Positions 458 to 13,160 of a stretch of DNA of 64,000 nt are shown here, one piece after another; the stretch's first letter is position 1; every line of letters begins with the position of its first letter. The DNA comes from Bacteroidales bacterium (GTDB taxonomy: Bacteria > Bacteroidota > Bacteroidia > Bacteroidales > P3): assembly GCA_017428115.1 (NCBI GenBank), contig JAFRRK010000052.1, positions 884 to 64,883 on the forward strand, in the 5' to 3' direction. The notes under the pieces were generated by a model that saw nothing but the letters and a program-made list of their open reading frames with translations, did not search any database and had not been told where the DNA came from. The translations under genes and the position numbers were made by a program.

Positions 458-2257
458 ATGACATTCGCAGATCTCTATAAGAGGCTACATATTTGGCGTT
501 TGCGGCACATATCAGAGCAGTCGTACCTGTTGCTGCTGAGTGTCGTGGTAGGTGTGTTTAGCGGTCTGGCGGCCGTGTTGCTCAAAACGGTGGTACACCT
601 TTCGGGACAACTGGTGATGAATTTCGGCAATACACACGACTTCACCGGCGGGGGCAACATACTCACCTTCGTCACTCCATTGGTAGGCATACTGCTAACC
701 ATTCTATTTGTGCGTTTTGTGGTGCGTGGCGACATTGGCCACGGTATTCCCAGCGTGCTGCTCTCCATCTCCCGACACAAAGGCAAGCTGCCACCCCGCA
801 ACATGTATTCATCGCTTGTTGCCTCCACCCTCACGGTTGCCTTTGGTGGCAGCGTGGGTCTAGAGGCGCCCATTGCCTCTACTGGCAGTGCCATAGGCTC
901 CAACGTGGGCCGATTCTTCCATGTAAGCCCCCGTGGTGTAAAGCTGTTGCTAGGCTGCGGTGCTGCGGGAGCCATTGCCGGCATCTTCAAGGCCCCATTG
1001 GCGGGAGTGCTGTTCACGGTGGAGGTGCTTATGTTCGACATGACCATGACCACTGCCGTACCCTTGCTCATCTCCGCCCTATCTGCCTCAACCGTAGCCT
1101 ACTTCCTGATGGGGCACGACGTCCAGTTTGCCTTTAAAGTCACAGAGGACTTCACCCTACACCAAATACCGTTCCTCATGGTGCTGGGGGTATTTTGCGC
1201 CTTTAGCTCTGTCTACTTCCTGCGTTGCACCGACTGGGTGGAGTCGTGGTTCTCGAGGCGTAAGAACTGGATGCGTAAATGGCTGGTTGGCGGCGTGGTG
1301 CTGGGAGTGATGATATTCCTCTTCCCACCGCTGTATGGCGAAGGATACTGGGCGCTCACCGAGCTGCTCAATGGTGCCAACGACGACGCACTGTTTGCCA
1401 ACAGCGTTTTTAACATATTCCGAGACAACTCGTGGGTAGCCCTTGCCATCCTATTTGTGCTCATACTGCTCAAGCCCATAGCCACAGCCACTACCATAGG
1501 CAGCGGCGGCGTGGGCGGCACCTTTGGTCCCTCACTTGTTGTAGGCGGCCTCAGCGGCTACTTCATCGCTGCCCTGGGCAACCAATTGGGACTGCCCCCG
1601 CAGTCGACCGCCAATTTCGCCCTCGTGGGCATGGCGGGAGTGATGACCGGCGTGATGCACGCCCCTTTCATGGGGGTATTCCTCATTGCCGAAATCACTG
1701 GCGGCTATGCCCTTATGATACCGCTCCTTATCACTTCCACAGTCACCTACATCTGTGTACAGCCCTTTGAGAATCATTCCATCTATGCTCGCAAACTGGC
1801 TCTTAAGGGAGACCTTATGACCCACAATAAAGATGCCTCAGCCTGGCACCTAATGGACCTCCAGAAACTTATCGAAACCAACTTTGCCACCGTACCTGAA
1901 GATGGCACTCTACGCGATATCGTTGAAGCCATCAAACACTCTAAGCGCAACCTCTTCCCCGTTGTAGATGCCGAAGGCAAATTCCTCGGCCTAATTGTCA
2001 TGGACGACCTACGACAGACCATTTTCGAGACAGAGTTATACGACAAACTGACTGTCAAGGAGCTGATGATGACTTTCGAAGACAAAGACATAGTCCATTC
2101 CAGCGAGTCACTTGTAGATGTGGTCAACAAGTTCCAACTAAGCAACCGCTACAACCTCATCGTAGTTGACGACAGCGGACACTATCTCGGCTTCCTCTCA
2201 CGTGCCAACACCTTCTCCGCCTACCGCCGATTCATCTCCCAAAGTTCAGAAGAATAG
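458..2257 (+). CDS. ClC family voltage-gated chloride channel with C-terminal CBS pair
   Basis: 599 aa and polytopic. It has ClC selectivity-filter-like motifs (GGSVGLEAP, GIFKAPLAG, GVGGTFGPSL) and a C-terminal tail of about 140 aa with a CBS-like repeat (NLFPVVDAEGKFLGLI ... NLIVVDDSGHYLGFLS). Confidence 0.9.
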   Translation: MTFADLYKRLHIWRLRHISEQSYLLLLSVVVGVFSGLAAVLLKTVVHLSGQLVMNFGNTHDFTGGGNILTFVTPLVGILLTILFVRFVVRGDIGHGIPSVLLSISRHKGKLPPRNMYSSLVASTLTVAFGGSVGLEAPIASTGSAIGSNVGRFFHVSPRGVKLLLGCGAAGAIAGIFKAPLAGVLFTVEVLMFDMTMTTAVPLLISALSASTVAYFLMGHDVQFAFKVTEDFTLHQIPFLMVLGVFCAFSSVYFLRCTDWVESWFSRRKNWMRKWLVGGVVLGVMIFLFPPLYGEGYWALTELLNGANDDALFANSVFNIFRDNSWVALAILFVLILLKPIATATTIGSGGVGGTFGPSLVVGGLSGYFIAALGNQLGLPPQSTANFALVGMAGVMTGVMHAPFMGVFLIAEITGGYALMIPLLITSTVTYICVQPFENHSIYARKLALKGDLMTHNKDASAWHLMDLQKLIETNFATVPEDGTLRDIVEAIKHSKRNLFPVVDAEGKFLGLIVMDDLRQTIFETELYDKLTVKELMMTFEDKDIVHSSESLVDVVNKFQLSNRYNLIVVDDSGHYLGFLSRANTFSAYRRFISQSSEE

Positions 2258-2277
2258 CCTCGCCACCCCTCCGTTTT

Positions 2278-2615
2278 TAACCCAAATCGGTCATTAGGGT
2301 TTATGCCAGATTAGTATTTGTTTCGAGCAGATTGACCTCATCGCTGGCGAACGTTGCGTAAAGCGAGAGCAGAGGAAGCTTGCTTGCTATGCCGAGCCAC
2401 AGCAATGTCAACGAAGTTAAGGCGTAGCGGGCTACGGCGAGACAGGGATGTGGACAAGATGCCGAACGTTACCCAATGCGAGAGCATAGCAAGCTTGCTT
2501 GCTATGCCGAGCCCAAGTAACGTCATGGAGCATAAAGAAATGCTGATATGGCATAAACAGACCTGAAAAAAGGAGATTAATTGAAAAGTCGGTCTAATGA
2601 CCGATTTGGGTTTAA
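2278..2615. repeat. 338-bp element bounded by inverted repeats (MITE-like or long-hairpin) with an internal ~65-nt direct repeat
   Basis: The termini TAACCCAAATCGGTCATTAG (2278-2297) and CTAATGACCGATTTGGGTTTAA (2594-2615) are reverse complements with one indel. The internal direct repeats at about 2347-2410 and 2461-2525 each contain the palindrome AGCAAGCTTGCT. The element lies between convergent genes. Confidence 0.6.
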
Positions 2616-2827
2616 CAAAAAAAGGTCGATTTTCTGGATTATAATCCAAAAATTATATATTTTTTTGGATTACGTTCCAACAAATCCATTTTATTAGTTG
2701 TATTAGTGCGTAAGTCAAACAGTCACTCATTTGAGAATCCGTTAGTCTTTGATGCGCCAAGTACTAACACGTTAACTTCAAAAAGACTCACACATTAACA
2801 AGTTAACACATTAACACATTCCTCCGC

Positions 2828-3739
2828 TTATTCTTCATCATTCCCATACTTGTCCAACATTGCCTTTATCTCTTCTTTCATCTCATCCCGTAGTGATTCG
2901 GGTTTCAGCACCTCCACCCTGCTGCCCAATGAGAGTATCTTCTGTTTAAAGTCAAAGGTCGGGCGCACACGAACCGAGAAGACCGAGTATTCCTCATTCC
3001 GTCTCAGTTCCAGTTGGGAGTGATGAAGAGGGAGCGACCGCAGATAGTTGGCCTGAAAAGCATCCACTTTTATCCAAACACTTTCGACGTTCACGTCATC
3101 CCCAAGAATGATGCCATAGCTGTCTTTAAACATCTCCTCCACATCGAAATCGGGGTCTCTCGTGTATGTCTCCTCTTGGATTTCAATATTGCTAATCCTA
3201 TCCAGCGCAAAGATATGATGCGGCATATCCTCAGTGTACTTGCCGACTACGTACCAGCGACGTTCAAACATCTTCAACGCATGGGGTCGGAAGTCGGTGT
3301 AGTGCGTTACATTGTCGCGCCAGTATGCGCCATAGTCGAACCTCATCATCCGCAACTCCTTCATGGCCTGGAGTATGGCGGGCAGTGGGTCGGTGTGACT
3401 CTCTTCTATGGCGATATATTGTGCCAACTCTTGGCTGTCCATCAGAATCCGGTTCACAGCAATAGAGTTGAGCATCCACTGACGGAAATAGCCGTTCTTG
3501 CCGCTGTCGGCTATACGATAACGGTACACGCCGCCCGACACGTAACATTCAATTTCTATTCCGAAAATATCCTTTATCTCCTCGCGGTGACGATGGAATG
3601 TGCGGTCAGAATAAAGGCGACCACCATTAATATCGTCATTGAAATAATAAGCATCGGCAATCTGCTGGAGCGTCAACCCCACATTGCCCGCCTTCATCAC
3701 AGTATCGACAAGCCAGATATATTTCTTCAAGGGTGTCAT
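2828..3739 (-). CDS. WYL-domain transcriptional regulator (wHTH-WYL-WCX architecture, BrxR/CapW-like)
   Basis: The ORF 2828..3940 is trimmed to the internal ATG at 3739 (MTPLKKYIWLVDTV...). The N-terminal HTH-like segment is LTLQQIADAYY. The central region ...ALKMFERRWYVVGKY...IFALDRI is typical of WYL domains. Length is about 303 aa. Confidence 0.8.
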   Translation of the reverse strand: MTPLKKYIWLVDTVMKAGNVGLTLQQIADAYYFNDDINGGRLYSDRTFHRHREEIKDIFGIEIECYVSGGVYRYRIADSGKNGYFRQWMLNSIAVNRILMDSQELAQYIAIEESHTDPLPAILQAMKELRMMRFDYGAYWRDNVTHYTDFRPHALKMFERRWYVVGKYTEDMPHHIFALDRISNIEIQEETYTRDPDFDVEEMFKDSYGIILGDDVNVESVWIKVDAFQANYLRSLPLHHSQLELRRNEEYSVFSVRVRPTFDFKQKILSLGSRVEVLKPESLRDEMKEEIKAMLDKYGNDEE

Positions 3740-3755
3740 AGGTTGTTCTTGTTGA

Positions 3756-4079
3756 TTAAAAAAAATGAAATCGACATAGAGACTTGCCAGCAATTGCACC
3801 ATGTTGAGTGGTATGTACAAATTTTGCGACAACCACTTTACCTTGCCTTCCGCCTTCAGTTTGAACTTGTGCAATTTTTGCACAGGTTGCCTCCCGTTCC
3901 AACTCTTCTGCCTTGTAGATATTGTTGATATGACGAACAATAGAAGTTCTGTCAGTCAGGAAAAGCTCTGCCATCTGTGCTTGTGTCATCCACACAGTTT
4001 CATTCTCAAACCTCACGTCAATCTGTGTGTTGCCATCGGCAGTCTGGTAGATGATTATCTTGTCATTAACGTTCTCCAT
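3756..4079 (-). pseudogene. RhuM-family (virulence protein RhuM-like) N-terminal stub
   Basis: The first ~79 aa (MENVNDKIIIYQTADGNTQIDVRFENETVWMTQAQMAELF...IAQVQTEGGR) match the N-terminus I recognise from ~330-aa RhuM-family proteins. The remainder is unrelated sequence and the ORF stops at 107 aa. Confidence 0.6.
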
Positions 4080-4124
4080 AATCCTATAACGTCACCTGTA
4101 TCATTTTATTGCATGGCAAAAACC

Positions 4125-4484
4125 TCATTTCCCCTCTATTACCTCTTGCATATCTTGCACCAAACAACGCAATGTCTTAAGGCGTTTGATTTGTCGGGAA
4201 TACTCATCCTTGTCAAAATAGAGTGGCACCTCGTGAAAAGGCAGCTGCAATGCGAAGAGTGCTTGCTCCCGTGTAACGTGGTACCGTTTCATCATTGCTT
4301 TGATACGTTCCCTGTTATCGGGAAACTCTACAACCATGTCGGCAATCACCTGCACACTAAAACCTATCATCTCACAAACTTCCGAACATTCAATTACCTT
4401 ATCCAAAAACTCTGGCGTCACCTCTTCTGTAACCGTACACGGGGTATCTAATCCCCGAAATCTTGATTCTGCATATAGTTTCAT
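4125..4484 (-). CDS. hypothetical 119-aa protein, co-transcribed downstream of the ParE-like gene
   Basis: Clean ORF whose start lies 17 nt after the ParE-like stop on the same strand. I recognise no motif. Confidence 0.55.
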   Translation of the reverse strand: MKLYAESRFRGLDTPCTVTEEVTPEFLDKVIECSEVCEMIGFSVQVIADMVVEFPDNRERIKAMMKRYHVTREQALFALQLPFHEVPLYFDKDEYSRQIKRLKTLRCLVQDMQEVIEGK

Positions 4485-4501
4485 AATGTCAATCTTGTTT
4501 G

Positions 4502-6400
4502 TTAATATGGTGTATTGATGTCATTGTCTTCAACGCGTAAATTGCGCATTATAAACTCGCGACGTTCTGGAGTATTCTCGCCCATATAGAATGAGAGAAC
4601 GCTTTGAGTGTCGAAGTCTTCTGGAAGTACTACAGGGTCGAGTCGCATGTCTTTGCCTATAAAAGTCTTAAACTCCTCAGGGGATATTTCTCCAAGCCCC
4701 TTGAATCGGGTAATCTCAGCATTGGGAGTATTTTGGATAGCTACGATGCGCTCTTCATTGGTATAACAATAAGTATTCTTTTGCTTGTTACGTACACGGA
4801 AAAGAGGAGTCTGTAAGATGAATACATGGCCTGTCCGAATGAGCTCTGGATAAAAACGAAGGAAGAATGTGAGCAAGAGAAGCCGGATATGCATACCATC
4901 AACATCGGCATCAGTGGCTATAACAACTCTATTATATCGTAAATTCTCAATACCGTCATAAACGGCAAGAGCATTGTGCAGGAGAAGAAGTTCCTTGTTG
5001 TTGAAAATATCCTCTATGGTTTTCAGATTATAGGTATTCTTGGTTTTCCCACGTAAAGAGAAAACTGCCTGAGTTTTGACATCACGGCTTTGTGTGATAG
5101 ACCCTGAGGCCGATTCACCTTCAGTAATGAAGATGGTACTTTCCAAACGTAGGGTGTGATGGGTGTTGTAATGTATGTGGCAGTCGCGTAGCTTGTTGTT
5201 ATTTAGAGCGACTCTTTTACTATTATCTTTTGCAACCCTTTTAATATCCGAAATTTGCTTACGTTCCTTCTCGTTGGCGTTGATTTTTTGAAGGAGTGCA
5301 TTAGCTGTCTCGTTGTGAATATGAAGATAGTTATCAAGTTGGCGTTTGAGAACATCATACACATAGGTTTTTAACAGAGGACTGTCGTTGCTCCCGTCAA
5401 CCTTGTTGGGTTCGAGACGTGTGGAACCTAATTTGGTTTTAGTTTGTGCCTCAAATACGGGTTCTTGTATACGTATACATAAGGCACAGACGAGACCTTG
5501 ACGGATGACCTCAGGTGAGTAGTCTTTCTTAATAAAATCTTTCACTACACGGGCATAAGCCTCTCGGAAGGCACTCTGGTGGGTACCTCCCTCGGTAGTA
5601 TGCTGTCCGTTAACAAACGAATAGTAATAATCGTTACTTTGGCCATTGATATGAGTGAAGGCGGCTTCAAAGTTGTCCTCCTTGATGTGAATGATGGGAT
5701 AGAGGGATTTCGATTGAAGGTTGTTCTCCAACAAGTCGAGTAGGCCGTTCTTTGAGTAATAGCGCCGACCATTATAGTAAATAGTGAGACCGCTGTTAAG
5801 ATAACAATAATACCAGATACGCCTTTCAATATGCTCCTCAACAAAGTGATAGTCGCCAAATAGTTTTCGGTCAGGGATGAATTCAACAAGTGTTCCAGAT
5901 TCGGTATTCGTGTCGGGAACGATGCCGCTGTCACTGACAAGATTGCCATCAGCGAATTGTGCGCAGCGACACATACCATCTCTGAACGACTGCACTTTGA
6001 AATAACTACTGAGGGCATTTACCGCTTTGATACCTACTCCATTCAAACCAATAGACTTTTTAAAAACCTTGCTGTCATATCTGGCCCCTGTATTGAGCTT
6101 TGAGATTGCATCAACAAGTTTGCCTAATGGAATACCACGACCATAGTCACGGATGCTAACACACCTCTCGTTAAGGTTAACTGTAATATCTATCTTCTTT
6201 CCGAATCCTGATGTAAACTCGTCAATAGAATTGTCCATCACCTCCTTGATTAGTACATAGATGCCGTCGTCATGGGATGAACCGTCACCGAGCTTGCCTA
6301 TATACATACCTGGACGGAGACGAATATGTTCCATATCTTCAAGGTGAATAATGGTATCGTCATTATACGCAATTGCGGAGAGGCTGTCAGTCTGTTCCAT
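4502..6400 (-). CDS. parE: type IIA DNA topoisomerase subunit B, ParE (topo IV B)-type, all catalytic motifs intact
   Basis: Start trimmed to ATG 6400 (MEQTDSL...). Motifs: HIRLRPGMYIGKLGDG (ParE-type N-terminus), GHKL N-box EVMDNSIDE, G1 DYGRGIP, G2 GLNGVGIKAVNALS, QTK loop EAQTKTKLGS, TOPRIM ITEGESASGS and ATDADVDGMHIRLLLLTFF, and KGLGEISPEEF. Confidence 0.9.
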   Translation of the reverse strand: MEQTDSLSAIAYNDDTIIHLEDMEHIRLRPGMYIGKLGDGSSHDDGIYVLIKEVMDNSIDEFTSGFGKKIDITVNLNERCVSIRDYGRGIPLGKLVDAISKLNTGARYDSKVFKKSIGLNGVGIKAVNALSSYFKVQSFRDGMCRCAQFADGNLVSDSGIVPDTNTESGTLVEFIPDRKLFGDYHFVEEHIERRIWYYCYLNSGLTIYYNGRRYYSKNGLLDLLENNLQSKSLYPIIHIKEDNFEAAFTHINGQSNDYYYSFVNGQHTTEGGTHQSAFREAYARVVKDFIKKDYSPEVIRQGLVCALCIRIQEPVFEAQTKTKLGSTRLEPNKVDGSNDSPLLKTYVYDVLKRQLDNYLHIHNETANALLQKINANEKERKQISDIKRVAKDNSKRVALNNNKLRDCHIHYNTHHTLRLESTIFITEGESASGSITQSRDVKTQAVFSLRGKTKNTYNLKTIEDIFNNKELLLLHNALAVYDGIENLRYNRVVIATDADVDGMHIRLLLLTFFLRFYPELIRTGHVFILQTPLFRVRNKQKNTYCYTNEERIVAIQNTPNAEITRFKGLGEISPEEFKTFIGKDMRLDPVVLPEDFDTQSVLSFYMGENTPERREFIMRNLRVEDNDINTPY

Positions 6401-6434
6401 AATGATGTTGCTATTGTTTTTATATTTCAAAATG

Positions 6435-6442
6435 CAAAAATA
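6435..6442 (-). promoter_or_regulatory. -7 box (TATTTTTG on the minus strand) of the ParE-like operon
   Basis: TAnnTTTG match about 35 nt upstream of ATG 6400. Confidence 0.5.
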
Positions 6443-6449
6443 CAACAAA

Positions 6450-6472
6450 GGTGTGCCAAATCATGACACACC
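6450..6472 (-). promoter_or_regulatory. island operator copy 1 (23-bp inverted repeat)
   Basis: Plus strand reads GGTGTGCCAAATCATGACACACC. The half-sites GGTGTGCCA and TGACACACC are near-perfect reverse complements. The motif sits 7 nt upstream of the -7 box. Confidence 0.6.
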
Positions 6473-6563
6473 TCTATTTTATTTTCAATAGACTTGAAAC
6501 CTTACAGTGAATATATTCTCACAAGCAATTCTTGTTTTCCATTTTTTTTGTTCTTTCGAGATG

Positions 6564-6571
6564 CAAAAGTA
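6564..6571 (-). promoter_or_regulatory. second -7 box (TACTTTTG on the minus strand), part of a duplicated promoter module
   Basis: TAnnTTTG match with operator copy 2 located 7 nt upstream. Confidence 0.4.
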
Positions 6572-6578
6572 TAAAACG

Positions 6579-6601
6579 GGAGTGCCACATCGTAACGCAC
6601 C
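6579..6601 (-). promoter_or_regulatory. island operator copy 2
   Basis: Plus strand reads GGAGTGCCACATCGTAACGCACC. The architecture and the 7-nt spacing to a -7 box match copy 1. Confidence 0.55.
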
Positions 6602-6617
6602 TTAAAAATATACCTAA

Positions 6618-7052
6618 TTAGTACATGCTGGCTATTCTTTCTTCAACTAAAGACACTATTGATTCAGCATATTTTTTATGGATATAATCTATAATAGACG
6701 TAGTTTTGGTTCTCGGATTTGTCGTCCATATCAAATCTGCATCTAATAGATTAGTTATCCTTTCGACCTCATTACAGGTTGATCCAGTTGTTCGTGAAGC
6801 ACATACGATTATTTTACAACCATTATCTACTAACTCATTCAGTGTTTCTAACATCCTTGAGTTTGGGTCTCCTTGGCTTTCCACTCCAACGAGAACACCA
6901 TTAACATCCACAATACCAAGAATATCTCCATCATCTCTCAACACCTGAACTTTTCTTGTGTATTTCTTTGAAAGAACATTGTACACTTCTCTAACGGACG
7001 AGGACTTTCCTTGCTGGGCAGAACCCCTATTTACAATTACGAGTGGCTTCAT
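6618..7052 (-). CDS. small (144 aa) P-loop-like protein
   Basis: A Walker-A-like GSAQQGKSS lies at aa 10-18 right after a beta-strand-like MKPLVIVN. A hydrophobic strand KIIVCASR follows later. The start is 11 nt after the upstream gene's stop. Confidence 0.55.
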   Translation of the reverse strand: MKPLVIVNRGSAQQGKSSSVREVYNVLSKKYTRKVQVLRDDGDILGIVDVNGVLVGVESQGDPNSRMLETLNELVDNGCKIIVCASRTTGSTCNEVERITNLLDADLIWTTNPRTKTTSIIDYIHKKYAESIVSLVEERIASMY

Positions 7053-7063
7053 GCTGCTGATTT

Positions 7064-7783
7064 TTATATGATTATTTTTTTATAGAAATCATGAACTGCA
7101 TTTATCATGCCTTGGTCATCATGAGATCGAGGAGATGGGTGATAGTCATCTATTAATAACAGATTGCTCTCTTGGCAAAAATGGCACCATTCATTGTACT
7201 GCAAGAAAACCATATCTGAATAAATATCTTTTGCTATATTCAGCAGGGTTCCACTTCCTCCTCCACATACAATAACATTGGGATTTAATATATTTCTAAT
7301 TTGTTCAACGATGAAATTCCTATCTCTTTCGTAATATGACTGTATAGTACTATTATATACTTTACTTCCGCCTGATATTTTCTTAACATTTACAATTGCC
7401 ATAGGATATGGCAATGCTAACTTAAAATATTCTTCACGAGTTTTATCAAAAACTGGTAGATGATTGGCATCTACTTCGTTCAACGCCCAAATACATTTAA
7501 TCATCGTCATAAAAGTTCGATGGACATTTATCTCATCTGTATCATAGAACGCCCACTCTCGGTAATCACAACCAGGATTTCCATTCGTGTCTTTTACGAG
7601 AAATAACACTTTTCGCTTTGTATTAACCCATTTGTCAACTTCCGCATATTCATCTTTGCAATTCGGGTCTCTATAATATATAAGTCCATCAAAGCAGAAT
7701 ATTTTTTGCATCTCTTCGGAATATGAATTCTTCCAACGAATGCATAATTCTGTTTCCTTTTTATCAAATTCCTTTCCATTCAT
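7064..7783 (-). CDS. hypothetical protein with SMUG-like uracil-DNA-glycosylase-superfamily motifs
   Basis: VLFLVKDTNGNPG (aa 59-71) resembles UDG motif A (SMUG1 GMNPG). HPSPRS (aa 215-220, nt 7124-7141) resembles UDG motif B (HPSPRN or HPSPLS). The intervening strand NVIVCGGGSG fits the UDG alpha/beta topology. Confidence 0.6.
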   Translation of the reverse strand: MNGKEFDKKETELCIRWKNSYSEEMQKIFCFDGLIYYRDPNCKDEYAEVDKWVNTKRKVLFLVKDTNGNPGCDYREWAFYDTDEINVHRTFMTMIKCIWALNEVDANHLPVFDKTREEYFKLALPYPMAIVNVKKISGGSKVYNSTIQSYYERDRNFIVEQIRNILNPNVIVCGGGSGTLLNIAKDIYSDMVFLQYNEWCHFCQESNLLLIDDYHPSPRSHDDQGMINAVHDFYKKIII

Positions 7784-7803
7784 ATCTCATACTTGTTTTT
7801 AAA

Positions 7804-8163
7804 TCAATAATGATATTTCGTTGGGGGAATAATTATGCATGCTTCATTCTGATAAAAGAAACTACCTGATATCTTCTTGTTCTTAGGGGGTAATCCACAA
7901 CCTTTCTCATAAAAGGTCTCTGTTCGTATATCCCATGCAATTTCGGCATTTTCATCTTTAGTCAAAAAAAGAACCCGCAATGGACACTCGTTCCATAGTG
8001 TATTTTCTATACCACTCTCTTTCCGTCTCACTGCTTCATACTCATCAATGTAAAACACTCCTTTATTCATTATACCATCGAGAGCAAAACTATTGTCTTC
8101 TATCATTAACGACTTACGCCATTCTTCGAGAATTCTCTTATTCTCTGCAACGTAACCTTTCAC
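7804..8163 (-). pseudogene. decayed or truncated paralog of the SMUG-like gene
   Basis: GTG start, 119 aa. It aligns by eye with 7064..7783: FALDGIM vs FCFDGLI, RVLFLTKDENA vs KVLFLVKDTNG, KKISGSF vs KKISGGS. It lacks the NPG loop and the entire HPSP half. Confidence 0.45.
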
Positions 8164-8182
8164 ATAAACATATTATTGCTTA

Positions 8183-8205
8183 ATTGTGCCACATCGTGAC
8201 ACTCC
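8183..8205 (-). promoter_or_regulatory. island operator copy 3 (different promoter context)
   Basis: Plus strand reads ATTGTGCCACATCGTGACACTCC. Here a T-run plus GCA lies upstream of the operator, and only a degenerate TAATATGT lies 7 nt downstream. Confidence 0.5.
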
Positions 8206-8232
8206 TGCAAAAAAAATATTGATTGTTTTCTA

Positions 8233-9453
8233 TTACACTAGGCGTTCTACAACTTTCTTGAATATTTCGGTAGTCTTAACATAGTCATATTGATTATCAA
8301 CATAATTTACATATACCCATCGTAGTTTTTCTGTGTGACTATAAAGAATGTCTTTTGTTTTTTGTGTTAGTAAATCTGTATCTAACAATTGGCCGTGATC
8401 TAAATATTCCACTTGACAATATAATGTTGAATAATGTGAACTATCCTTGTCAATACTTACTAACACTTCCTTTCCATCAAAAGGAACTATTATTCTAACG
8501 TTATTATCGGACTCTTTCTGGTCTTTACGTATAGATGGATACTTCTCAATAATATCCATCTCTGCTTTTCGGATTATACCAAATCCAATCTCATCAAACA
8601 TTGACTGAATCTCTTTTTGGAATTCGATAATATTTAATAAGTTTGCTTTAATCTTAGACAAACACTCGTTATCATTTTGGCAATCTTTAAGATTGAAGTA
8701 ATTTAAGAGATAATTTTTTAATTCCATATTCACTGTTTTTTGAATTGTTCGTAAATCAAATAATCCTTCCAAATAATCAACATATTGTTGGACGGCATTT
8801 ATCAAATATGTGTCTTTATACTTTATGTTAGGCAAAATATTATTTTTTAGCCATGGAAGAATGTTCTCTTTGAATGACAAATTGATGAATCTGTCCTCGA
8901 AAAGCTGTTGGTAATCTCCCCACGATTGAGAATTTGGTTCACTTCCTGTTTGAGAAAGATAGACAACAAAGATATCATTCTGATTAAAAAGACATTCTTT
9001 TGTCTTATCAATATATCTTGACAGCTGAGCCTCTTGATCCTGAGCATTGTATATTTTGTTTTCAATAATTATTGCATAATTGCCGACCTTATCCCTTACC
9101 CACAAATCAATACGAGCTTCTTCTTGTGTGATTTTTGGCTTTTTAATATTAATCCTATCAAATTGCCTCGATTTGCTCTTTGACTTTATATAGTCAACAA
9201 ATGATTGAAGAATCTCCCATTCTTCTCGTTCATTGACAAATTGAAGAAGTTTCAGAAGAATTCGACTATGTCCATTCTCATTAATATGGAGTTCGTCTAT
9301 CACATTGATGTGATACGGCAACTTCAGTTTCTCCTCCATATAACGTTTATGGAATTCTCTTGAGAAATTAAGAAGTTTTTTATATTCAATATCAACTGCA
9401 TGTATAATATTTTCATACAGTTTTAAGGCGGATTCTATTTCTTTTTCCGACAT
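8233..9453 (-). CDS. PD-(D/E)xK nuclease family protein
   Basis: RIDLWVRD ... YAIIIENKIYN supplies the D...(D/E)xK signature (D-x(n)-E-N-K). 406 aa and AT-rich. Confidence 0.7.
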   Translation of the reverse strand: MSEKEIESALKLYENIIHAVDIEYKKLLNFSREFHKRYMEEKLKLPYHINVIDELHINENGHSRILLKLLQFVNEREEWEILQSFVDYIKSKSKSRQFDRINIKKPKITQEEARIDLWVRDKVGNYAIIIENKIYNAQDQEAQLSRYIDKTKECLFNQNDIFVVYLSQTGSEPNSQSWGDYQQLFEDRFINLSFKENILPWLKNNILPNIKYKDTYLINAVQQYVDYLEGLFDLRTIQKTVNMELKNYLLNYFNLKDCQNDNECLSKIKANLLNIIEFQKEIQSMFDEIGFGIIRKAEMDIIEKYPSIRKDQKESDNNVRIIVPFDGKEVLVSIDKDSSHYSTLYCQVEYLDHGQLLDTDLLTQKTKDILYSHTEKLRWVYVNYVDNQYDYVKTTEIFKKVVERLV

Positions 9454-9476
9454 GATATAATATGCTTTTCGTGTTG

Positions 9477-9484
9477 CAAAGATA
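9477..9484 (-). promoter_or_regulatory. -7 box (TATCTTTG on the minus strand) upstream of the PD-(D/E)xK gene, without an operator
   Basis: Exact TAnnTTTG match about 25 nt upstream of ATG 9453. Confidence 0.4.
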
Positions 9485-9524
9485 CAAACATTTTTTATAT
9501 CTGCGCATTATATATCAAATAATT

Positions 9525-11207
9525 TCAAGATAAAAAACCTATTCGTCTGGTCTTGGCATTGTTAATCCGCTCGTTGTCACAATGGGGAGTAAGTAGGTCG
9601 ATTGTGGGAACATTGTTGCCATGCAGGATGGCATCAATGGCATAGTGGCGGGCGATATTCTCTATCTGGCCACCGCTAAAGTCGTACCGCTCGGCCAAAA
9701 GGGTGGCATCAGTGTCGCTTAGGTCGGGCAGCAGTTCATGCCAGATGGCGGTGCGGGCTTCCACTGTGGGTTTGTCGAAGCGTATCTTATAGAGGAAACG
9801 CCGCTCGAAAGCATTGTCCATATTCTGAGCCAGATTGGTGGTGGCAATCAGTATTCCGTCGAGGGTCTCCATCTCCTGTAAGATGATGTTCTGAAGCGAG
9901 TTCTCCATTTTGTCCACAGCACGTTCCGCACCCTCCTGTCGCTTGCCGATGATGGCATCTGCCTCGTTGAAGAGGAGGATGGGCACAAGGGTACTCTCTT
10001 TGACCCGCTGGCGGTAGGTATCGAAGAGAGCTTTCATGTTCTTCTCACTCTCACCGACCCACTTGCTCTTCATCTCGGAGATGTCCACCTGCATAATGTC
10101 GCGACCTGTGCGTCGAGCCAATTGCATCACCGTCTCGGTCTTACCCGTGCCAGGAGCCCCATAGAAGAGACAGGTGAGTCCACAACGGAAACCCTGCTCT
10201 TGCAGACGGGCATGAATGTCGCTGTAGTTCTTCTCCTCAAGCAGACGGGCAAGGTCGTCAATACGATGGGTGATGTCGTCGGAGTAGAACAAGGTACGGG
10301 GCTTGATGTCGGAAGCGATAATCATATTGCGCAGCGTCCTCTTCCCTTCGAGTGAGGGAAGTTGCAACTCGTCAAGCAAGTCTCGCTTCGCCTTCATTGT
10401 AAGCCTATAATGCTCCTTGTCCCCCATCCCATCGTTGTTGCTATATTCTATCAAACCCAATCGTTGAAGAAAGTTGACACCCTGCTCCAATTCCGTCCTT
10501 ATCATACGCATATCCTTCTTGCTATATATGCAATCAATATCATGAAAGCCAATACAATCATCGTTGTTGTTCACAAACAGATGACAGAACATGATAAGCA
10601 GAACAAATTCTTTGTCAAATTCTTTGTCACATATTTCGGGGATGAGGTTCTGCACCTTTTGTACGAACAACAGCTGCTGGTTATGGTGAAACAGCATCTT
10701 GAAACGTTCTACGGCAGCAGCAATATCCATCTCATCATCGTCCACCCTGTCAACAATGTCTGCAAACTCATTGAACAACTCATGGCAGGTAAGCCCGGAA
10801 CAATCCTTGGGCGTGTAGGGCTTATTCACTTTGAAAGCTTCCACCACATCAATAGGCACACGGTAGGAAACAGAACTCGACGAACGGCTACGAACAATCA
10901 AACCTCGGCGTACCAACTCGTCAATATCATTCATATAACGGATCATCCGCGTGGTACGGCAGCCCGTATATTTTGCAATGTCGCTTGCCTCGATTCTTGA
11001 GTCATCACTTTGGTCAAGAAACAACGCCATCATCACGCTCTGCTCTTTTGTGAGGCTGAGCTTGTCCGACAGATGCTTAATAAAACGCGCTGCCTTGCAA
11101 TAAAACTCTGGCGACAACTGCGATTCTTTTGCCAATTCCACGATGTTCTCGACTGCCGAAAGTAAGTCTAACTTTCTTTTCCCTTGTGTTTTACTTGCTG
11201 TTTCCAT
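9525..11207 (-). CDS. classical-clade AAA+ ATPase with an N-terminal region of about 340 aa carrying two wHTH-like modules
   Basis: Start trimmed to ATG 11207 (METASKTQGK...). Walker A is FYGAPGTGKTE. Walker B region is ILLFNEADAI (Asn where Asp is usual). The SRH/Arg-finger region is NLAQNMDNAFERRF. wHTH-like segments are IAKYTGCRTTRMIRYMNDIDELVRRGLIV and GVNFLQRLGLIEY. Confidence 0.85.
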   Translation of the reverse strand: METASKTQGKRKLDLLSAVENIVELAKESQLSPEFYCKAARFIKHLSDKLSLTKEQSVMMALFLDQSDDSRIEASDIAKYTGCRTTRMIRYMNDIDELVRRGLIVRSRSSSSVSYRVPIDVVEAFKVNKPYTPKDCSGLTCHELFNEFADIVDRVDDDEMDIAAAVERFKMLFHHNQQLLFVQKVQNLIPEICDKEFDKEFVLLIMFCHLFVNNNDDCIGFHDIDCIYSKKDMRMIRTELEQGVNFLQRLGLIEYSNNDGMGDKEHYRLTMKAKRDLLDELQLPSLEGKRTLRNMIIASDIKPRTLFYSDDITHRIDDLARLLEEKNYSDIHARLQEQGFRCGLTCLFYGAPGTGKTETVMQLARRTGRDIMQVDISEMKSKWVGESEKNMKALFDTYRQRVKESTLVPILLFNEADAIIGKRQEGAERAVDKMENSLQNIILQEMETLDGILIATTNLAQNMDNAFERRFLYKIRFDKPTVEARTAIWHELLPDLSDTDATLLAERYDFSGGQIENIARHYAIDAILHGNNVPTIDLLTPHCDNERINNAKTRRIGFLS

Positions 11208-11233
11208 ATCAATAATCTTTTTATATCCGACTG

Positions 11234-11241
11234 CAAAAATA
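11234..11241 (-). promoter_or_regulatory. -7 box (TATTTTTG on the minus strand) of the AAA+ gene
   Basis: TAnnTTTG match about 27 nt upstream of ATG 11207. Confidence 0.5.
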
Positions 11242-11248
11242 CGACAAT

Positions 11249-11271
11249 GGTATGCCATTTCGTGACACACC
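11249..11271 (-). promoter_or_regulatory. island operator copy 4
   Basis: Plus strand reads GGTATGCCATTTCGTGACACACC, located 7 nt upstream of the -7 box as in copies 1 and 2. Confidence 0.6.
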
Positions 11272-11363
11272 CAATAATTTATTTATTATTAAAAAAAAAG
11301 ATAACTTATATGCTTTGTCGGCAAAACGGCCAAGCATTCAGGGATTCTTATAGTTCTTAATTG

Positions 11364-12407
11364 TCAATCCTTGATGACAAACGCCTGTTGCTCGCCGTCG
11401 ATGTTGAATTGGAGGGTGGCACCGTCGGGGCGGACGTCGATAGTGACGGGTGCGCCCATCACCAAGGGGAGATTCACCTTGCCATGGCCTGCAGGGAGGC
11501 CACAGAGGAGGGGAATCTTGTATTTTTCAATATATTGATGCAGCATTGCCTCGACACTCTCGTAGGAAAACTCTCTCTCACAATCGGTAAAGTCACCCAA
11601 CACAATGCCCTTGCAGCGGTCTAACACCCCGTTCATGGCAAGGATGGTGAACTGGCGGTCGATATTGTGCATGCCCTCCTCTACCTCTTCGATAAAGAGG
11701 ATGAGGTCGTTTCCAATAGTGGCATCGGCCTGAGTGCCAAGGTTGGGCGCAAAGGTGCAGATGTTGCCACCTACCAGTATTCCACTGGCATGGCCCACGA
11801 TGTTTTGGGGATGCGGCGGCAACTCGTAGCGAGGCACCTGCCCCATTAGCAGGTCGCGCAACAGAGTGCTATTCAAATCGGTGCCGCCTTTGGCCAAGAA
11901 CATGCTCATCGTACCGTGGATGCTCATCACGCCCGCCCGAGCCAACAAGCCATGTAGTGTTGTGACGTCGCTGAACCCCACCAGCCACTTAGGGTGTGCC
12001 CTCCACTCGGCAAGAGGTATTTGGTCGATATAATGAATAGTGCCATACCCACCACGATTGCAAATAATTGCCTTGATGCTGGTATCGGCCAACGCCCAAC
12101 GGAGGTCGCTCACCCTTTCTTCCACAGTGCCGGCATATCTGCCCAAGTAGACCTTGCCGACATTGGGCCCTACCACGGGCACCAACCCCCATCCTCGCAG
12201 TACCTCGGCGGCTTTTTCCACCTCATCCATCGACTTAAAATATGAAGGTGACACAAGTGCCACCCTATCGCCCACCTTCAGATAGTCGGGCTGCATGCAA
12301 CGCAGTGCGACAGAACCCCTAATGGGCTTGCCCTGACCATCTGCACCGATTGGCGACAACGTGAATAGCAAGCCAACCATCAATAGAATAAAACCATTAT
12401 ATTTCAT
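11364..12407 (-). CDS. LD-carboxypeptidase (peptidase S66, LdcA-like), secreted
   Basis: Start trimmed to ATG 12407 (MKYNGFILLMVGLL..., signal peptide). S66-like segments are VALVSPS, GGYG, GFSDVTTLH and the C-terminal GHG. Confidence 0.8.
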   Translation of the reverse strand: MKYNGFILLMVGLLFTLSPIGADGQGKPIRGSVALRCMQPDYLKVGDRVALVSPSYFKSMDEVEKAAEVLRGWGLVPVVGPNVGKVYLGRYAGTVEERVSDLRWALADTSIKAIICNRGGYGTIHYIDQIPLAEWRAHPKWLVGFSDVTTLHGLLARAGVMSIHGTMSMFLAKGGTDLNSTLLRDLLMGQVPRYELPPHPQNIVGHASGILVGGNICTFAPNLGTQADATIGNDLILFIEEVEEGMHNIDRQFTILAMNGVLDRCKGIVLGDFTDCEREFSYESVEAMLHQYIEKYKIPLLCGLPAGHGKVNLPLVMGAPVTIDVRPDGATLQFNIDGEQQAFVIKD

Positions 12408-12539
12408 ATCTTTATGATTAAAAATAAGACCCTTACAACCATGCAAAGACAATTGCCCAAACATCCATCCTAGAGAAAGGGACAACACCAGCTAAAGCGA
12501 TGCAAAGATAGGCATTTTATTTCAATCCATAAAAAAAAC

Positions 12540-13046
12540 TAAAGTTTGACAAGCCATTTTACTTCAAAAAGTGACATGTTAGAAGCTGTTTCTTAGTAAT
12601 ATTTTCAATAAAAATCAGCGGGTTGCCAACATGCCTGTTATAACGTGACACCCCAAGGGGCGATACATGCATCCATCCCCATTGTCATTGTCATCGTCAT
12701 CATCGCACACTTTACTTCGTGGCATTGCTTTGGCTCGGCAAAAGAAAGCTCGGTTTCTTTGCTCTCGCCCTGTACAACGTTGTGCCACTTCTTTTTCTAA
12801 AAGTGGCACCCTAATTATTGCCCTTTTTCAGAATAATTATAACTAAAGGACTGCAGCACCCACCTCAACCACACACCATACCTTCGTCGTGCCTTCGCCG
12901 TGCCTTCGTTTCCGGAAGCGAAAACAGGGCGAAGGCAGGAACAAGTCAGCCAGTCTCCGTCACAAAACAACCCAACCGAAGACCGGAAAAAGGAAAACGT
13001 AGGGCTAAAAACAACTCGGAATGCAAGCCTGATTATACTTGTCAAC
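12540..13046 (+). repeat. intergenic repeat family, copy A (full length)
   Basis: Alignable by eye to the reverse complement of 30096-30775 and, over its 3' half, to 37385-37642. It contains the hairpin GTGCCACTT...AAGTGGCAC and tandem 11-mers CCTTCGTCGTG/CCTTCGCCGTG/CCTTCGTTTCC at 12881-12913, followed by a CGAAGGC complement. Confidence 0.75.
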
Positions 13047-13160
13047 AAAAATATAAGCTACATGAGAATACACTCACAGTCATGCCAATCATCACTTATA
13101 GCATTCGATTGCATTGAGATTGAGAAGAAGTTTTTTTTTTGGTATATTGCTTTTTTTTTG

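What the first reader, a model, noticed from the sequence alone, without database searches (positions are those of the whole stretch)
2828..11271. Integrase-less accessory island of DNA-acting enzymes between the ClC channel gene and ldcA
Nine minus-strand ORFs lie here:
- a WYL regulator
- a RhuM stub
- a 119-aa ORF
- a ParE-type topoisomerase subunit
- a mini P-loop protein
- a SMUG-like UDG-fold protein
- its decayed paralog
- a PD-(D/E)xK nuclease
- a wHTH-AAA+ ATPase

The region is AT-richer than its flanks by eye, most strongly at 6.6-9.5 kb. I found no integrase, transposase, adjacent tRNA or flanking direct repeat. It therefore looks like a defence-island or hotspot cargo rather than a self-mobile element. 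Every recognisable domain acts on DNA or is an ATP-driven remodeller. Three transcription units are linked by one shared operator (separate finding). I cannot match this gene set to any named defence system I know.
Basis: partly seen in the sequence, partly recalled or inferred. Interest (0 to 1): 0.85.

Follow-up and report, generated by a model that had tools for sequence, protein, structure and literature searches.

The report
Variable defence-gene island with spare ParE
This 8.5-kb stretch is a real, strain-variable gene island in a rumen Prevotella-type bacterium; most of it looks like an ordinary co-regulated store of anti-phage-type genes, but it also carries a rare second, diverged copy of an essential DNA-untangling enzyme subunit (topoisomerase IV ParE) whose role is unknown.

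Summary
Nine minus-strand ORFs, low GC, no integrase, tRNA or flanking repeat, and a shared operator are all present.

Comparison with related rumen Bacteroidales contigs shows an accessory island at about 2827-11281, between convergent ClC and ldcA genes. One relative has ClC and ldcA 94 bp apart. At least three other gene sets occupy this neighbourhood.

The island has a fixed frame and a swap zone:
- **Frame:** a 5' AAA+ ATPase gene and a 3' orf119-RhuM/Fic-WYL/WCX regulator block.
- **Swap zone here:** a PDDEXK_4 nuclease, a truncated UDG-like gene, an intact UDG-fold protein, a small P-loop-like protein and a ParE copy.
- **Swap zone elsewhere:** Mrr, GmrSD, a RelE toxin-antitoxin (TA) pair and DUF932.

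Transcription units begin with the same 23-bp palindrome, in most copies followed by a Bacteroidetes -7 box. This is probably the WYL regulator's site.

The ParE is not the housekeeping gene. It belongs to a five-cluster paralog lineage found only in such islands. That lineage is under purifying selection, has low GC3, and carries signature substitutions concentrated in the Toprim domain.

Verdict: a WYL-regulated defence-type hotspot, a new variant of a known kind, with one unusual cargo gene. Anti-phage function is inferred, not shown.

The parts
11218..11271 (-). Promoter/operator cassette upstream of the AAA+ gene. The palindrome GGTGTGTCA-N5-TGGCATACC lies at 11249-11271 and is followed by the -7 box TATTTTTG.
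   Evidence: The same cassette lies upstream of the AAA+ gene in L002, L091, L104-L109, L114 and L115.
9525..11207 (-). Frame gene 1: a 560-aa protein with a unique 330-aa N-terminal region and one classic-clade AAA+ domain (VCP/CDC48-like). GC3 is 0.60, like the host.
   Evidence: It is 72-94% identical across islands that carry different cargo and sit at different chromosomal sites.
8233..9453 (-). Cargo: PD-(D/E)xK nuclease of family PDDEXK_4 (PADLOC candidate PDC-S26). GC3 is 0.29.
   Evidence: It is 99.5% identical in L104, L105, L108 and L112, whereas the neighbouring AAA+ protein is 92.5-94.5% identical there.
8183..8205 (-). Operator copy upstream of the truncated UDG-like gene. This copy is not followed by a clear -7 box.
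7804..8163 (-). Remnant (N-terminal ~111 codons) of a 284-aa UDG-like gene. In L103 the intact gene sits directly upstream of the ParE paralog.
7064..7783 (-). Cargo: 239-aa UDG-superfamily-fold protein with a KDTNGNPG motif-A-like segment and an HPSPRS motif B. Candidate Brig-like DNA glycosylase. GC3 is 0.29.
   Evidence: Relatives sit in other WYL/RhuM islands.
6618..7052 (-). Cargo: 144-aa minimal alpha/beta protein with a Walker-A-like GSAQQGKS. No Pfam family. It arrived together with the 239-aa gene.
6419..6601 (-). Two tandem promoter/operator cassettes (palindromes at 6579-6601 and 6450-6472) upstream of the ParE paralog.
   Evidence: The same arrangement occurs in L103, and one copy in L091.
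4502..6400 (-). ParE2: a 632-aa paralog of topoisomerase IV subunit B. All four domains and the catalytic motifs are intact. GC3 is 0.43.
4125..4484 (-). Frame gene: orf119, a small protein family always found just upstream of RhuM/WYL. It starts 17 bp after the ParE2 stop.
   Evidence: A 3' remnant is retained in L002, L104, L105 and L109.
3756..4079 (-). RhuM remnant. The N-terminal ~85 codons are retained; the rest, including the Fic domain, has been deleted.
   Evidence: The full 331-aa RhuM+Fic is present in L002, L099, L104, L105 and L123.
2828..3739 (-). Frame gene: 303-aa WYL-WCX transcription regulator, the last gene of the ParE2 operon. GC3 is 0.60.
   Evidence: It is 91-97% identical in L002, L105 and L123.
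458..2257 (+). Core flank: ClC channel gene, convergent with the island.
11364..12407 (-). Core flank: LD-carboxypeptidase (ldcA, Peptidase_S66), co-directional with the island and upstream of it.

Best explanation
Window 2827-11281 is a strain-variable, horizontally exchanged defence-type island. It sits between the convergent core genes ClC and ldcA.

**Build**
- The fixed frame has a 5' AAA+ ATPase gene and a 3' block of orf119, RhuM/Fic (here reduced to a stub) and a WYL-WCX regulator.
- Between them is a swap zone into which different strains have recombined different DNA-targeting genes.
- Each transcription unit opens with the same 23-bp palindrome, in most copies placed just upstream of a Bacteroidetes -7 box.

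**Regulation (inferred)**
- The island's own WYL regulator probably binds that palindrome and sets expression of the whole island in response to a nucleic-acid or nucleotide signal, as BrxR, CapW and DriD do.
- The regulator would also control itself, because it is the last gene of the ParE2 operon.

**Cargo in this copy**
- A PDDEXK_4 nuclease.
- A dead remnant of one UDG-like gene.
- An incoming cassette of a different UDG-fold protein plus a small P-loop-like protein. The UDG-fold protein is most likely a Brig-type glycosylase that excises modified phage bases.
- ParE2, a functional-looking extra B subunit of topoisomerase IV that would have to pair with the host ParC.

**Shown:** anatomy, variability, paralogy, selection, operator repetition and folds.
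**Inferred:** anti-phage role, the WYL-operator link, and what ParE2 does.
For: **Empty site and alternative occupants**
- Empty site: L004 has ldcA and ClC 94 bp apart.
- L105-type: AAA-PDDEXK-RhuM-WYL-DUF4143-ClC.
- L002: ldcA-AAA-Mrr-GmrSD-RelE TA-RhuM/Fic-WYL.
- L122/L123: M28-227aa-UDG243-DUF932-orf119-RhuM-WYL.

**History and mobility**
- Remnants of the stub 5' end and the orf119 3' end in L105, L104 and L002 show these are deletion or replacement derivatives of a window-like form.
- The same frame occurs at unrelated chromosomal sites: L091 next to DarT/AbiEii, L107 after a metallo-beta-lactamase-fold gene, and L102, L111, L114 and L115.

**Operator**
- 4 copies in the window against 0.02 expected.
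- The same palindrome, usually with its -7 box, lies upstream of AAA+ and of cargo genes in a dozen loci. It is absent from the empty site and from the housekeeping parE locus.

**Composition and family context**
- GC3 falls into three layers.
- WYL + WCX domains are present. BrxR-family WYL regulators are known to sit with diverse defence islands (PMC9122601, PMC9122589).
- The UDG fold is supported. UDG-fold antiviral glycosylases Brig1 and Brig2 occur in AT-rich defence islands (PMC11078745; 10.1101/2025.10.29.685425).

**ParE2 paralogy**
- 115 of the top 120 homologs form a tight housekeeping cluster sitting in an AsmA-ParE-SerRS context.
- The window copy and four other clusters score 1398-1415 bits against an island profile. 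The next hit scores 1280 bits.
- All four island copies whose contig extends beyond the gene sit in AAA/WYL-type islands; the fifth (P0002) lies on a 2.7-kb contig I did not examine.
- dN/dS is 0.05-0.09, and GC3 is 0.43-0.47 against 0.70 for the housekeeping gene.
- 33 substitutions fall at housekeeping-invariant sites. None is in the transducer domain. Nine lie within residues 453-491 of Toprim (P about 1e-5, window chosen post hoc).
Against: - No phenotype is known for any gene here.
- PADLOC matches are to candidate systems (PDC-S26, PDC-S05/S23) or partial systems only: IetA-like AAA with no IetS.
- The WYL gene lies at the 3' end of the array, not the 5' position typical of BrxR.
- Its HTH was not detected by Pfam.
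- The palindrome-regulator link is purely positional.
- AAA and WYL have host-like composition, so the frame may be old and resident rather than recently acquired.
- The route of movement between chromosomal sites is unexplained.
- All comparison sequences are metagenome assemblies.
Confidence: 0.72

Rival explanations
1. The island is a WYL-controlled DNA-damage or stress-response island rather than an immune one. A PafBC/DriD-type activator senses ssDNA and switches on accessory repair or tolerance enzymes: a glycosylase, a nuclease, a spare topoisomerase IV B subunit and an AAA+ remodeller.
For: - The WYL regulator's only PDB sequence matches are PafBC and DriD-type WYL proteins.
- DriD and PafBC are activators of damage regulons (PMC9186387, PMC10693628).
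- The palindrome sits where a -33 element would be, and no conserved -33 TTTG is seen. That arrangement fits activator-dependent promoters (my reading).
- Every cargo domain in the window acts on DNA.
Against: - Allelic cargo in close relatives is classic restriction or toxin-antitoxin material: Mrr, GmrSD, RelE, RhuM-Fic and DarT/AbiEii neighbours.
- Presence or absence varies between strains, and GC3 is very low.
- The UDG-fold protein lacks any match to housekeeping UDG families.
- A damage regulon would not be expected to swap contents between near-identical strains.
Confidence: 0.12
2. The island is a decayed piece of a mobile element (integrative or mobilisable element, prophage or satellite) that has lost its recombinase. 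The genes are element maintenance or exclusion functions.
For: - The same frame lies at several unrelated chromosomal sites with 72-94% protein identity.
- One IMG/VR contig carries a 68% AAA+ relative, and one carries a 38% UDG-like relative.
- ParE2 matches the phage topoisomerase II large-subunit PHROG.
- A MITE-like repeat lies at the right edge.
Against: - No integrase, transposase, relaxase, replication or structural gene appears among the genes called or searched in the 20+ loci examined.
- There is no att-like direct repeat and no tRNA.
- The viral-collection hits are single short contigs with the same island genes and no phage hallmark that I saw.
- The PHROG match is generic GyrB homology.
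Confidence: 0.1
3. The ParE gene is simply the organism's housekeeping topoisomerase IV subunit that happens to lie here. In that case only 6.5-9.5 kb is foreign.
For: - It is 78-82% identical to housekeeping Prevotellaceae ParE.
- All catalytic motifs are intact.
- It is under strong purifying selection.
Against: - Close relatives with the same frame at this neighbourhood lack it and keep only an orf119 3' remnant. That would be lethal for a sole parE.
- Housekeeping ParE of this group sits in a conserved AsmA-ParE-SerRS-L31 context.
- The island copies form their own profile-score group, 118 bits above all others.
- They share 16 fixed derived residues.
- GC3 is 0.43 against 0.70 for the housekeeping gene.
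Confidence: 0.03

Closest known systems
BrxR/CapW-type WYL regulators of phage-defence islands (Picton 2022, PMC9122601; Luyten 2022, PMC9122589)
   Same: - A WYL + WCX regulator is encoded inside a cluster of diverse defence-type genes.
- A palindromic site lies at the regulated promoters.
- The regulator family travels with changing cargo.
   Different: - Here the regulator is the last gene, not the first.
- Its site is repeated at three to four internal promoters.
- It is always paired with orf119/RhuM-Fic and with a distal AAA+ gene.
- Binding is untested, and sequence similarity to solved WYL proteins is weak (E about 1e-3).
Brig1 / Brig2 antiviral UDG-fold DNA glycosylases (PMC11078745; bioRxiv 10.1101/2025.10.29.685425)
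   Same: - A stand-alone UDG-superfamily fold with no match to housekeeping UDG families.
- The best structural matches are archaeal family-4 UDG, TDG and SMUG1.
- It is located in AT-rich defence islands.
- Bacteroidetes homologues of Brig2 are reported.
   Different: - Sequence relationship to Brig1 or Brig2 was not tested, because those sequences were not to hand.
- Substrate is unknown.
- In the window, L091 and L103 the gene lies immediately upstream of ParE2, which is not described for Brig proteins.
PADLOC candidate systems PDC-S26 (PDDEXK_4) and PDC-S05/S23 (RhuM)
   Same: - The 406-aa nuclease matches PDC-S26 over its whole length (E 1e-36).
- The RhuM stub matches the N-terminus of PDC-S05/S23 models.
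   Different: - These are bioinformatic candidates, not validated systems.
- The RhuM here is truncated and lacks its Fic domain.
IetAS (AAA+ IetA plus subtilase IetS)
   Same: The AAA+ domain resembles IetA (PADLOC E 8e-30; NCBIfam IteA 95.8 bits).
   Different: - The NCBIfam score is far below the cut-off of 510.
- No protease partner is present.
- The 330-aa N-terminal region is unrelated.
Extra drug-resistant type II topoisomerase B subunits of aminocoumarin producers (gyrB^R, parY^R; from my own knowledge, not checked here)
   Same: A second, functional-looking B subunit is encoded outside the housekeeping locus and presumably pairs with the resident A subunit.
   Different: - Those lie in antibiotic biosynthetic clusters and differ in the ATP pocket.
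- ParE2 lies in a defence-type island, and its signature changes cluster in Toprim residues 453-491 and at the EGDSA to EGESA position.
Chromosomal defence hotspots between conserved core genes (general concept; my own knowledge)
   Same: The same intergenic position is empty in one relative and filled with different defence genes in others.
   Different: - Here the variable genes are bracketed by their own conserved frame genes and a repeated promoter/operator cassette.
- The frame itself appears at several chromosomal positions.

Membership tests
WYL-domain transcription regulators (BrxR/CapW/PafBC/DriD architecture) | WYL domain | tested here: met
   PF13280, E 5.5e-9, 36.3 bits against cut-off 21.8. 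PADLOC WYL model, E 1.9e-31.
WYL-domain transcription regulators (BrxR/CapW/PafBC/DriD architecture) | C-terminal WCX domain | tested here: met
   PF25583, E 6.6e-13, 49.3 bits against cut-off 23.9.
WYL-domain transcription regulators (BrxR/CapW/PafBC/DriD architecture) | N-terminal (winged) HTH DNA-binding domain | tested here: inconclusive
   No Pfam HTH model hit residues 1-110 at E <= 0.01. No structure was predicted for this protein.
WYL-domain transcription regulators (BrxR/CapW/PafBC/DriD architecture) | Binds an inverted repeat at promoters of neighbouring genes | not testable with these tools
   A candidate site exists: the 23-bp palindrome, 4 copies in the window and present in many related islands. 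Binding needs EMSA or ChIP.
Topoisomerase IV subunit B (ParE), housekeeping ortholog | GHKL ATPase, transducer, Toprim and C-terminal tail with catalytic motifs | tested here: met
   All four Pfam domains are present. Motifs ExxDNxxDE, DxGRGIP, GLNGVG, QTK, EGES, DxDxDG and KGLGE are intact. There is a full-length match to S. pneumoniae ParE 4JUO, E 2e-76.
Topoisomerase IV subunit B (ParE), housekeeping ortholog | Groups with, and shares the genomic context of, the lineage's single-copy parE | tested here: not met
   It forms a separate five-cluster group. Its context is an island, not AsmA-ParE-SerRS. It is absent from close relatives. GC3 is 0.43 against 0.70.
Topoisomerase IV subunit B (ParE), housekeeping ortholog | Score above the NCBIfam equivalog cut-off | tested here: not met
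   TIGR01055 scores 289 against 723, and PRK05644 scores 395 against 740. Housekeeping Bacteroidales ParE were not scored for comparison, so this weighs little.
Uracil-DNA glycosylase superfamily (including Brig1/Brig2 defence glycosylases) | UDG alpha/beta fold | tested here: met
   The AF2 model has pLDDT 91.6. Top Foldseek PDB hits are TDG, family-4 UDG, UdgX, SMUG1 and UNG, with prob up to 1.00, best E 6e-4 and TM 0.39-0.50.
Uracil-DNA glycosylase superfamily (including Brig1/Brig2 defence glycosylases) | Motif A (water-activating loop) and motif B (HPSP-type) | tested here: inconclusive
   H215 and P216 are invariant in 'HPSPRS'. K64, D65, T66, N67 and P70 are (nearly) invariant in 'KDTNGNPG'. 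Assigning these to the catalytic motifs is my reading and is not structurally verified.
Uracil-DNA glycosylase superfamily (including Brig1/Brig2 defence glycosylases) | Sequence homology to Brig1 or Brig2; glycosylase activity on modified bases | not tested
Activity needs biochemistry.
IetAS defence system | IetA AAA+ ATPase at equivalog level | tested here: not met
   NCBIfam IteA_antiphage scores 95.8 bits against a cut-off of 510. Only the AAA domain aligns.
IetAS defence system | Adjacent IetS subtilase | tested here: not met
   No protease domain is present in any of the nine ORFs.
RhuM/Fic (PADLOC PDC-S05/S23) | Full-length RhuM with C-terminal Fic/DOC domain | tested here: not met
   Only residues 1-~83 align. 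About 860 bp are deleted relative to L105. The intact 331-aa form with PF13310 + PF02661 is present in L002, L099 and L123.
Self-mobile integrative element (ICE, IME, prophage, transposon) | Recombinase or transposase gene | tested here: not met
   There is no such family among the nine proteins in Pfam, NCBIfam or PHROGs, nor among the genes called or searched in related islands.
Self-mobile integrative element (ICE, IME, prophage, transposon) | tRNA target and/or flanking direct repeats | tested here: not met
   The only tRNA in the window is at 41809. No boundary direct repeat was found.

The most novel reading that the evidence does not exclude
ParE2 is a true immune component, not a passenger. 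It is a topoisomerase IV B subunit held under WYL control, and it could work in one of two ways.

- **(a) Spare or decoy subunit.** It is insensitive to a phage- or competitor-encoded inhibitor or poison of the host enzyme. The signature changes lie at the EGDSA aspartate and in the Toprim stretch that lines the DNA gate.
- **(b) Partner of the glycosylase.** It works with the UDG-fold glycosylase that lies just upstream in three of four ParE2 islands (three different UDG-like subfamilies). Base excision in modified phage DNA would then become topoisomerase-mediated double-strand breaks at abasic sites.
Probability: 0.2. Interest if true: 0.85.

Novelty: new variant of a known kind. Interest (0 to 1): 0.55.

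Why it matters
- **Hotspot architecture.** Defence hotspots and WYL regulators are established ideas. This locus adds a compact Bacteroidales version. A fixed two-ended frame and a repeated promoter/operator cassette appear to let unrelated DNA-targeting genes be swapped in and out under one control circuit.
- **ParE2.** An essential-enzyme subunit has been duplicated, kept functional for a long time (synonymous sites are saturated), altered in one surface patch, and confined to immune-type islands. I found no description of a type IIA topoisomerase subunit as defence-island cargo in the searched literature.
- **If ParE2 has an immune or anti-toxin role,** it would be a new way of using target duplication in bacterial conflict. 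It would also be relevant to topoisomerase-directed antibacterials.
- **New families.** The locus yields two unannotated families for testing: the UDG239 family, and the 144-aa P-loop-like family with 862 representative clusters.

Tried and rejected
- **Fic-ParE link.** FicT-type Fic toxins AMPylate a conserved ATP-lid tyrosine of GyrB/ParE (PMC7479194). Full-length RhuM in sister islands has an HSFSDGNKR Fic motif. But the aligned residue is Phe in both ParE2 and housekeeping Prevotellaceae ParE. ParE2 as a Tyr-less immune copy is therefore not supported.
- **ParE as the housekeeping gene.** Rejected; see the rival explanations.
- **Obligatory UDG-ParE2 pair.** UDG-family relatives occur in six other contexts without ParE2. 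L102 has ParE2 without a UDG-like gene. The pairing is therefore suggestive only.
- **P-loop144 and UDG239 as a conserved pair.** This was not seen in any other UDG context. The one P-loop relative looked up lies on a 511-bp contig.
- **RNA genes.** Rfam and tRNA scans of the island and of L105/L107 found nothing.
- **Exact insertion junctions.** The intergenic DNA of the empty-site relative is too diverged to align. No direct repeats were found.
- **Viral origin.** One weak IMG/VR contig was found per query.
- **orf119.** It has no family, PDB or PHROG match.
- **P-loop144 fold search.** No match below E 1e-3. The weak PHROG 'phosphoheptose isomerase' hit was not borne out.

Full report
**1. 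What is in the sequence**

The window has 46.8% GC. It comes from a rumen Bacteroidales/Prevotellaceae organism, judged from the titles of the related contigs.

Family searches give the following:

| Coordinates | Result |
|---|---|
| 2828-3739 | WYL + WCX regulator |
| 3756-4079 | Only the N-terminal ~81 residues of RhuM-type proteins |
| 4125-4484 | Nothing |
| 4502-6400 | All four GyrB/ParE domains |
| 6618-7052, 7064-7783, 7804-8163 | Nothing in Pfam |
| 8233-9453 | PDDEXK_4 (PADLOC candidate PDC-S26, E 1e-36) |
| 9525-11207 | One classic-clade AAA domain, closest to VCP/CDC48 D2 in the PDB, after 330 unassigned residues |

Further checks on the region:
- There is no tRNA or Rfam family in 1-14000.
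- No recombinase is present.
- No boundary direct repeat was found.
- GC3 is layered. AAA and WYL are at 0.60, like the core genes (0.60-0.66). ParE, orf119 and the RhuM stub are at 0.40-0.46. PDDEXK, stub, UDG and P-loop are at 0.29-0.33.

**2. It is an accessory island with a fixed frame and a swap zone**

A genome-collection scan with LdcA returned 80 loci. An exact-protein look-up returned ten copies of the same island. A metagenome scan with the AAA+ N-terminal region returned 14 more loci.

Alternative states of this neighbourhood:

| Locus | Gene order |
|---|---|
| L004 | ldcA and ClC convergent, 94 bp apart (empty site; LdcA and ClC each 84% identical to the window) |
| L105 (also L104, L108, L112) | AAA(94%)-PDDEXK(99.5%)-RhuM/Fic(331 aa)-WYL(94%)-DUF4143-ClC(92%) |
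| L002 | M28-ldcA-AAA(93%)-Mrr_cat-GmrSD-RelE TA pair-RhuM/Fic-WYL(97%) |
| L122/L123 | M28(90%)-227 aa-UDG-like 243 aa-DUF932-orf119(89-92%)-RhuM/Fic-WYL(91%), with no AAA or ldcA |

Nucleotide alignment shows how these forms relate:
- L105 and L104 keep the first ~80 nt of the window's truncated gene (down to window position 8084) and the last ~77 nt of orf119 (from window position 4201).
- They therefore derive from a window-like ancestor by loss of the 3.9-kb block that holds the UDG, P-loop and ParE genes.
- L002 and L109 also keep the orf119 3' remnant.

The frame also occurs at unrelated chromosomal positions:
- L091/L092 sit beside DarT and AbiEii. Their order is AAA(87%)-270 aa-ParE(82%)-orf119(84%)-DUF4143-RhuM-WYL(63%).
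- L107 follows a metallo-beta-lactamase-fold gene, with a GmrSD-like gene after the AAA+ gene.
- Further examples are L102, L111, L114 and L115.

Homology to these loci starts about 70 bp upstream of the AAA+ start codon (window ~11277-11281). It ends at the WYL stop codon (2827-2847).

**3. Shared control element**

The pattern GGWGYGTYAYGAWDTGGCAY occurs four times in the window. All four copies are on the gene strand and intergenic, at 11252, 8186, 6582 and 6453. Only 0.02 matches are expected by chance.

- The full element is an imperfect 9-5-9 palindrome, GGTGTGTCA-N5-TGGCACACC.
- In most copies it is followed after 8-9 nt by GTATTTTTGCA. This contains the Bacteroidetes -7 consensus TAnnTTTG (the consensus is from my own knowledge).
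- A start codon follows 25-40 nt later.
- The same cassette precedes the AAA+ gene in a dozen loci.
- It also precedes ParE2 in L091 and L103, GmrSD and the TA pair in L002, and cargo genes in L099 and L109.
- It is absent from the empty site L004 and from a housekeeping parE locus.
- ParE2, orf119, the RhuM stub and WYL are separated by 17-45 bp. The WYL gene is therefore probably co-transcribed from an operator-bearing promoter.
- That the WYL protein binds this site is inference by analogy with BrxR, CapW and DriD (PMC9122601, PMC9122589, PMC9186387).
- The site lies where a -33 element would be and no conserved TTTG is present, so activation is as possible as repression.

**4. The cargo genes**

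*UDG239 (7064-7783)*
- It has 58 database relatives, none annotated.
- The AF2 model is confident (pLDDT 91.6).
- Its PDB matches are almost exclusively UDG-superfamily enzymes, at low TM (0.39-0.50).
- An HPSPRS motif with invariant H215/P216 and a KDTNGNPG segment are conserved.
- Relatives sit in other WYL/RhuM or restriction-rich islands.
- The closest described analogues are the antiviral UDG-fold glycosylases Brig1 and Brig2 (PMC11078745; 10.1101/2025.10.29.685425). Homology to them was not tested.

*The stub (7804-8163)*
- It is 87% identical in protein and 92% in DNA to the start of a 284-aa gene in L103. That gene lies directly upstream of a ParE paralog.
- The 284-aa protein is a full-length member of the wider UDG239 family (hhalign prob 98.6%).
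- The 270-aa protein upstream of ParE2 in L091 is related over its C-terminal half (prob 96.4%).
- So in the window a resident UDG-like gene was cut at codon ~111 by an incoming 1.2-kb low-GC cassette (7838-6596) that carries a different UDG-like gene plus the 144-aa gene.

*The 144-aa protein (6618-7052)*
- It belongs to a family of 862 representative clusters.
- A GK Walker-A pair is invariant.
- Profile matches to P-loop proteins are weak.
- Some members are fused to DUF2971, trypsin-like or HEPN domains.
- The model is very confident (pLDDT 96.9), but it has no strong structural neighbour.

**5. The ParE copy is a distinct paralog**

- Of the 120 best database hits, 115 are more than 85% identical to each other. 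An example of that cluster (P0091) lies in a conserved AsmA-ParE-...-SerRS-L31 context on long contigs.
- The window protein and four other clusters (P0002, P0003, P0004, P0036; 44 member sequences in all) are 78-82% identical to that group and 82-85% to each other, apart from P0002, which is 94% identical to the window copy.
- A profile built from these five scores them at 1398-1415 bits. The next protein scores 1280 bits, and scores then decline smoothly. In a 5.8-billion-protein collection the lineage is therefore small and discrete.
- The window copy, P0003 and P0004 lie in AAA/WYL frames, and P0036 lies beside a UDG-like gene on a short contig. The P0002 contig (2.7 kb) was not examined.
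- Pairwise dN/dS is 0.05-0.09 where synonymous sites are not saturated. GC3 is 0.43-0.47 against 0.70 for a housekeeping copy.
- All catalytic motifs are intact. The best solved match is full-length S. pneumoniae ParE.

Thirty-three positions that are at least 95% invariant in housekeeping copies are changed in at least four island copies. Sixteen of them are fixed to one residue. Their distribution is uneven:
- None lies in the transducer domain (0 of 131 conserved columns, P about 2e-5).
- Nine lie in residues 453-491 (25 conserved columns, P about 1e-5; the window was chosen post hoc).
- There is also an EGDSA to EGESA change.

From my own knowledge, that aspartate (E. coli GyrB D426, S. 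pneumoniae ParE D435) and the stretch after the PLRGK loop belong to the B-subunit quinolone-resistance region at the DNA gate. I did not map this on a structure. No ParC paralog accompanies ParE2, so it would have to use the host ParC.

**6. Interpretation**

The best-supported reading is a WYL-regulated defence-type hotspot island: a conserved frame plus exchangeable DNA-targeting cargo.

- The frame's own function is unknown. Its parts are the AAA+ ATPase, orf119, RhuM-Fic and WYL.
- The frame could itself be a system whose effector (RhuM-Fic) has been lost in the window.
- The defence role is inferred from the company these genes keep and from precedents for WYL regulators and UDG-fold glycosylases.

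Rivals are a WYL-driven damage-response island, a decayed mobile element, and ParE as the housekeeping gene. The last is essentially excluded.

I found no description of a type IIA topoisomerase subunit as defence-island cargo in the paper library. A Fic-ParE connection was considered and not supported. The Fic-target tyrosine is Phe in both paralogs (PMC7479194).

**7. Verdict**

- The island as a whole is a new variant of a known kind.
- The ParE2 lineage, and its recurrent placement behind UDG-like genes, is the element worth experimental follow-up.
- Interest is 0.55.

Noticed in passing
window 2276-2615: A MITE-like element lies between the ClC stop and the WYL stop. It has nested inverted repeats (22 nt at 95%, 25 nt, 24 nt) and an internal 66-nt direct repeat. 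Copies at 90-100% identity lie elsewhere in a related genome (L004 16695-16897). It is absent from the L105 version of this site.
   Followed up: partly
window 45482-50311 (+): A 1609-aa ORF with very low GC3 (0.33 against ~0.6-0.7 for its neighbours). It has a Sacsin/HATPase-like N-terminal domain and a C-terminal SF1 helicase (AAA_11/AAA_12). It is probably another accessory or conflict gene.
   Followed up: partly
window 56769-61559 (-): A 1596-aa ORF with GC3 0.42 and no Pfam match, next to a TonB-dependent receptor gene (61584-63998).
   Followed up: partly
L105 533-760; L107 2818-3042; L106 1395-1619: About 230 bp of conserved non-coding DNA (88% identity) lies upstream of the AAA+ promoter in islands at different chromosomal sites. 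It is absent from the window and has no Rfam match. It could be part of the module's left end.
   Followed up: partly
L096 7865-8077; L102 4121-4342; L103 368-598; L111 2920-3147; L115 5037-5258: A small DUF6140 gene (70-76 aa) recurs in these islands, often next to UDG-like or orf119-family genes. It is not present in the window.
   Followed up: no
L114 8425-11659; L115 895-4117; L120 5343-7705: In several loci the order is WYL, then an RNase_T-like gene (163 aa), then either an AAA+ gene or a UDG-like gene. This suggests that modules are stacked in tandem in larger islands, or that the RNase_T-like gene is an optional part of the frame's 3' end.
   Followed up: no
L099 4978-5490 and 7755-8270: Two 89%-identical PLDc_2 (Nuc-like) genes flank a carbonic anhydrase gene, a 223-aa gene and a UDG-like gene. 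This is a possible recombination scar or duplication within a sister island.
   Followed up: no
window 9454-9524: The AAA-PDDEXK intergenic region has its own TAnnTTTG-like box (TATCTTTG) but no palindrome. The 99.5%-conserved nuclease gene may therefore be expressed independently of the shared operator.
   Followed up: no
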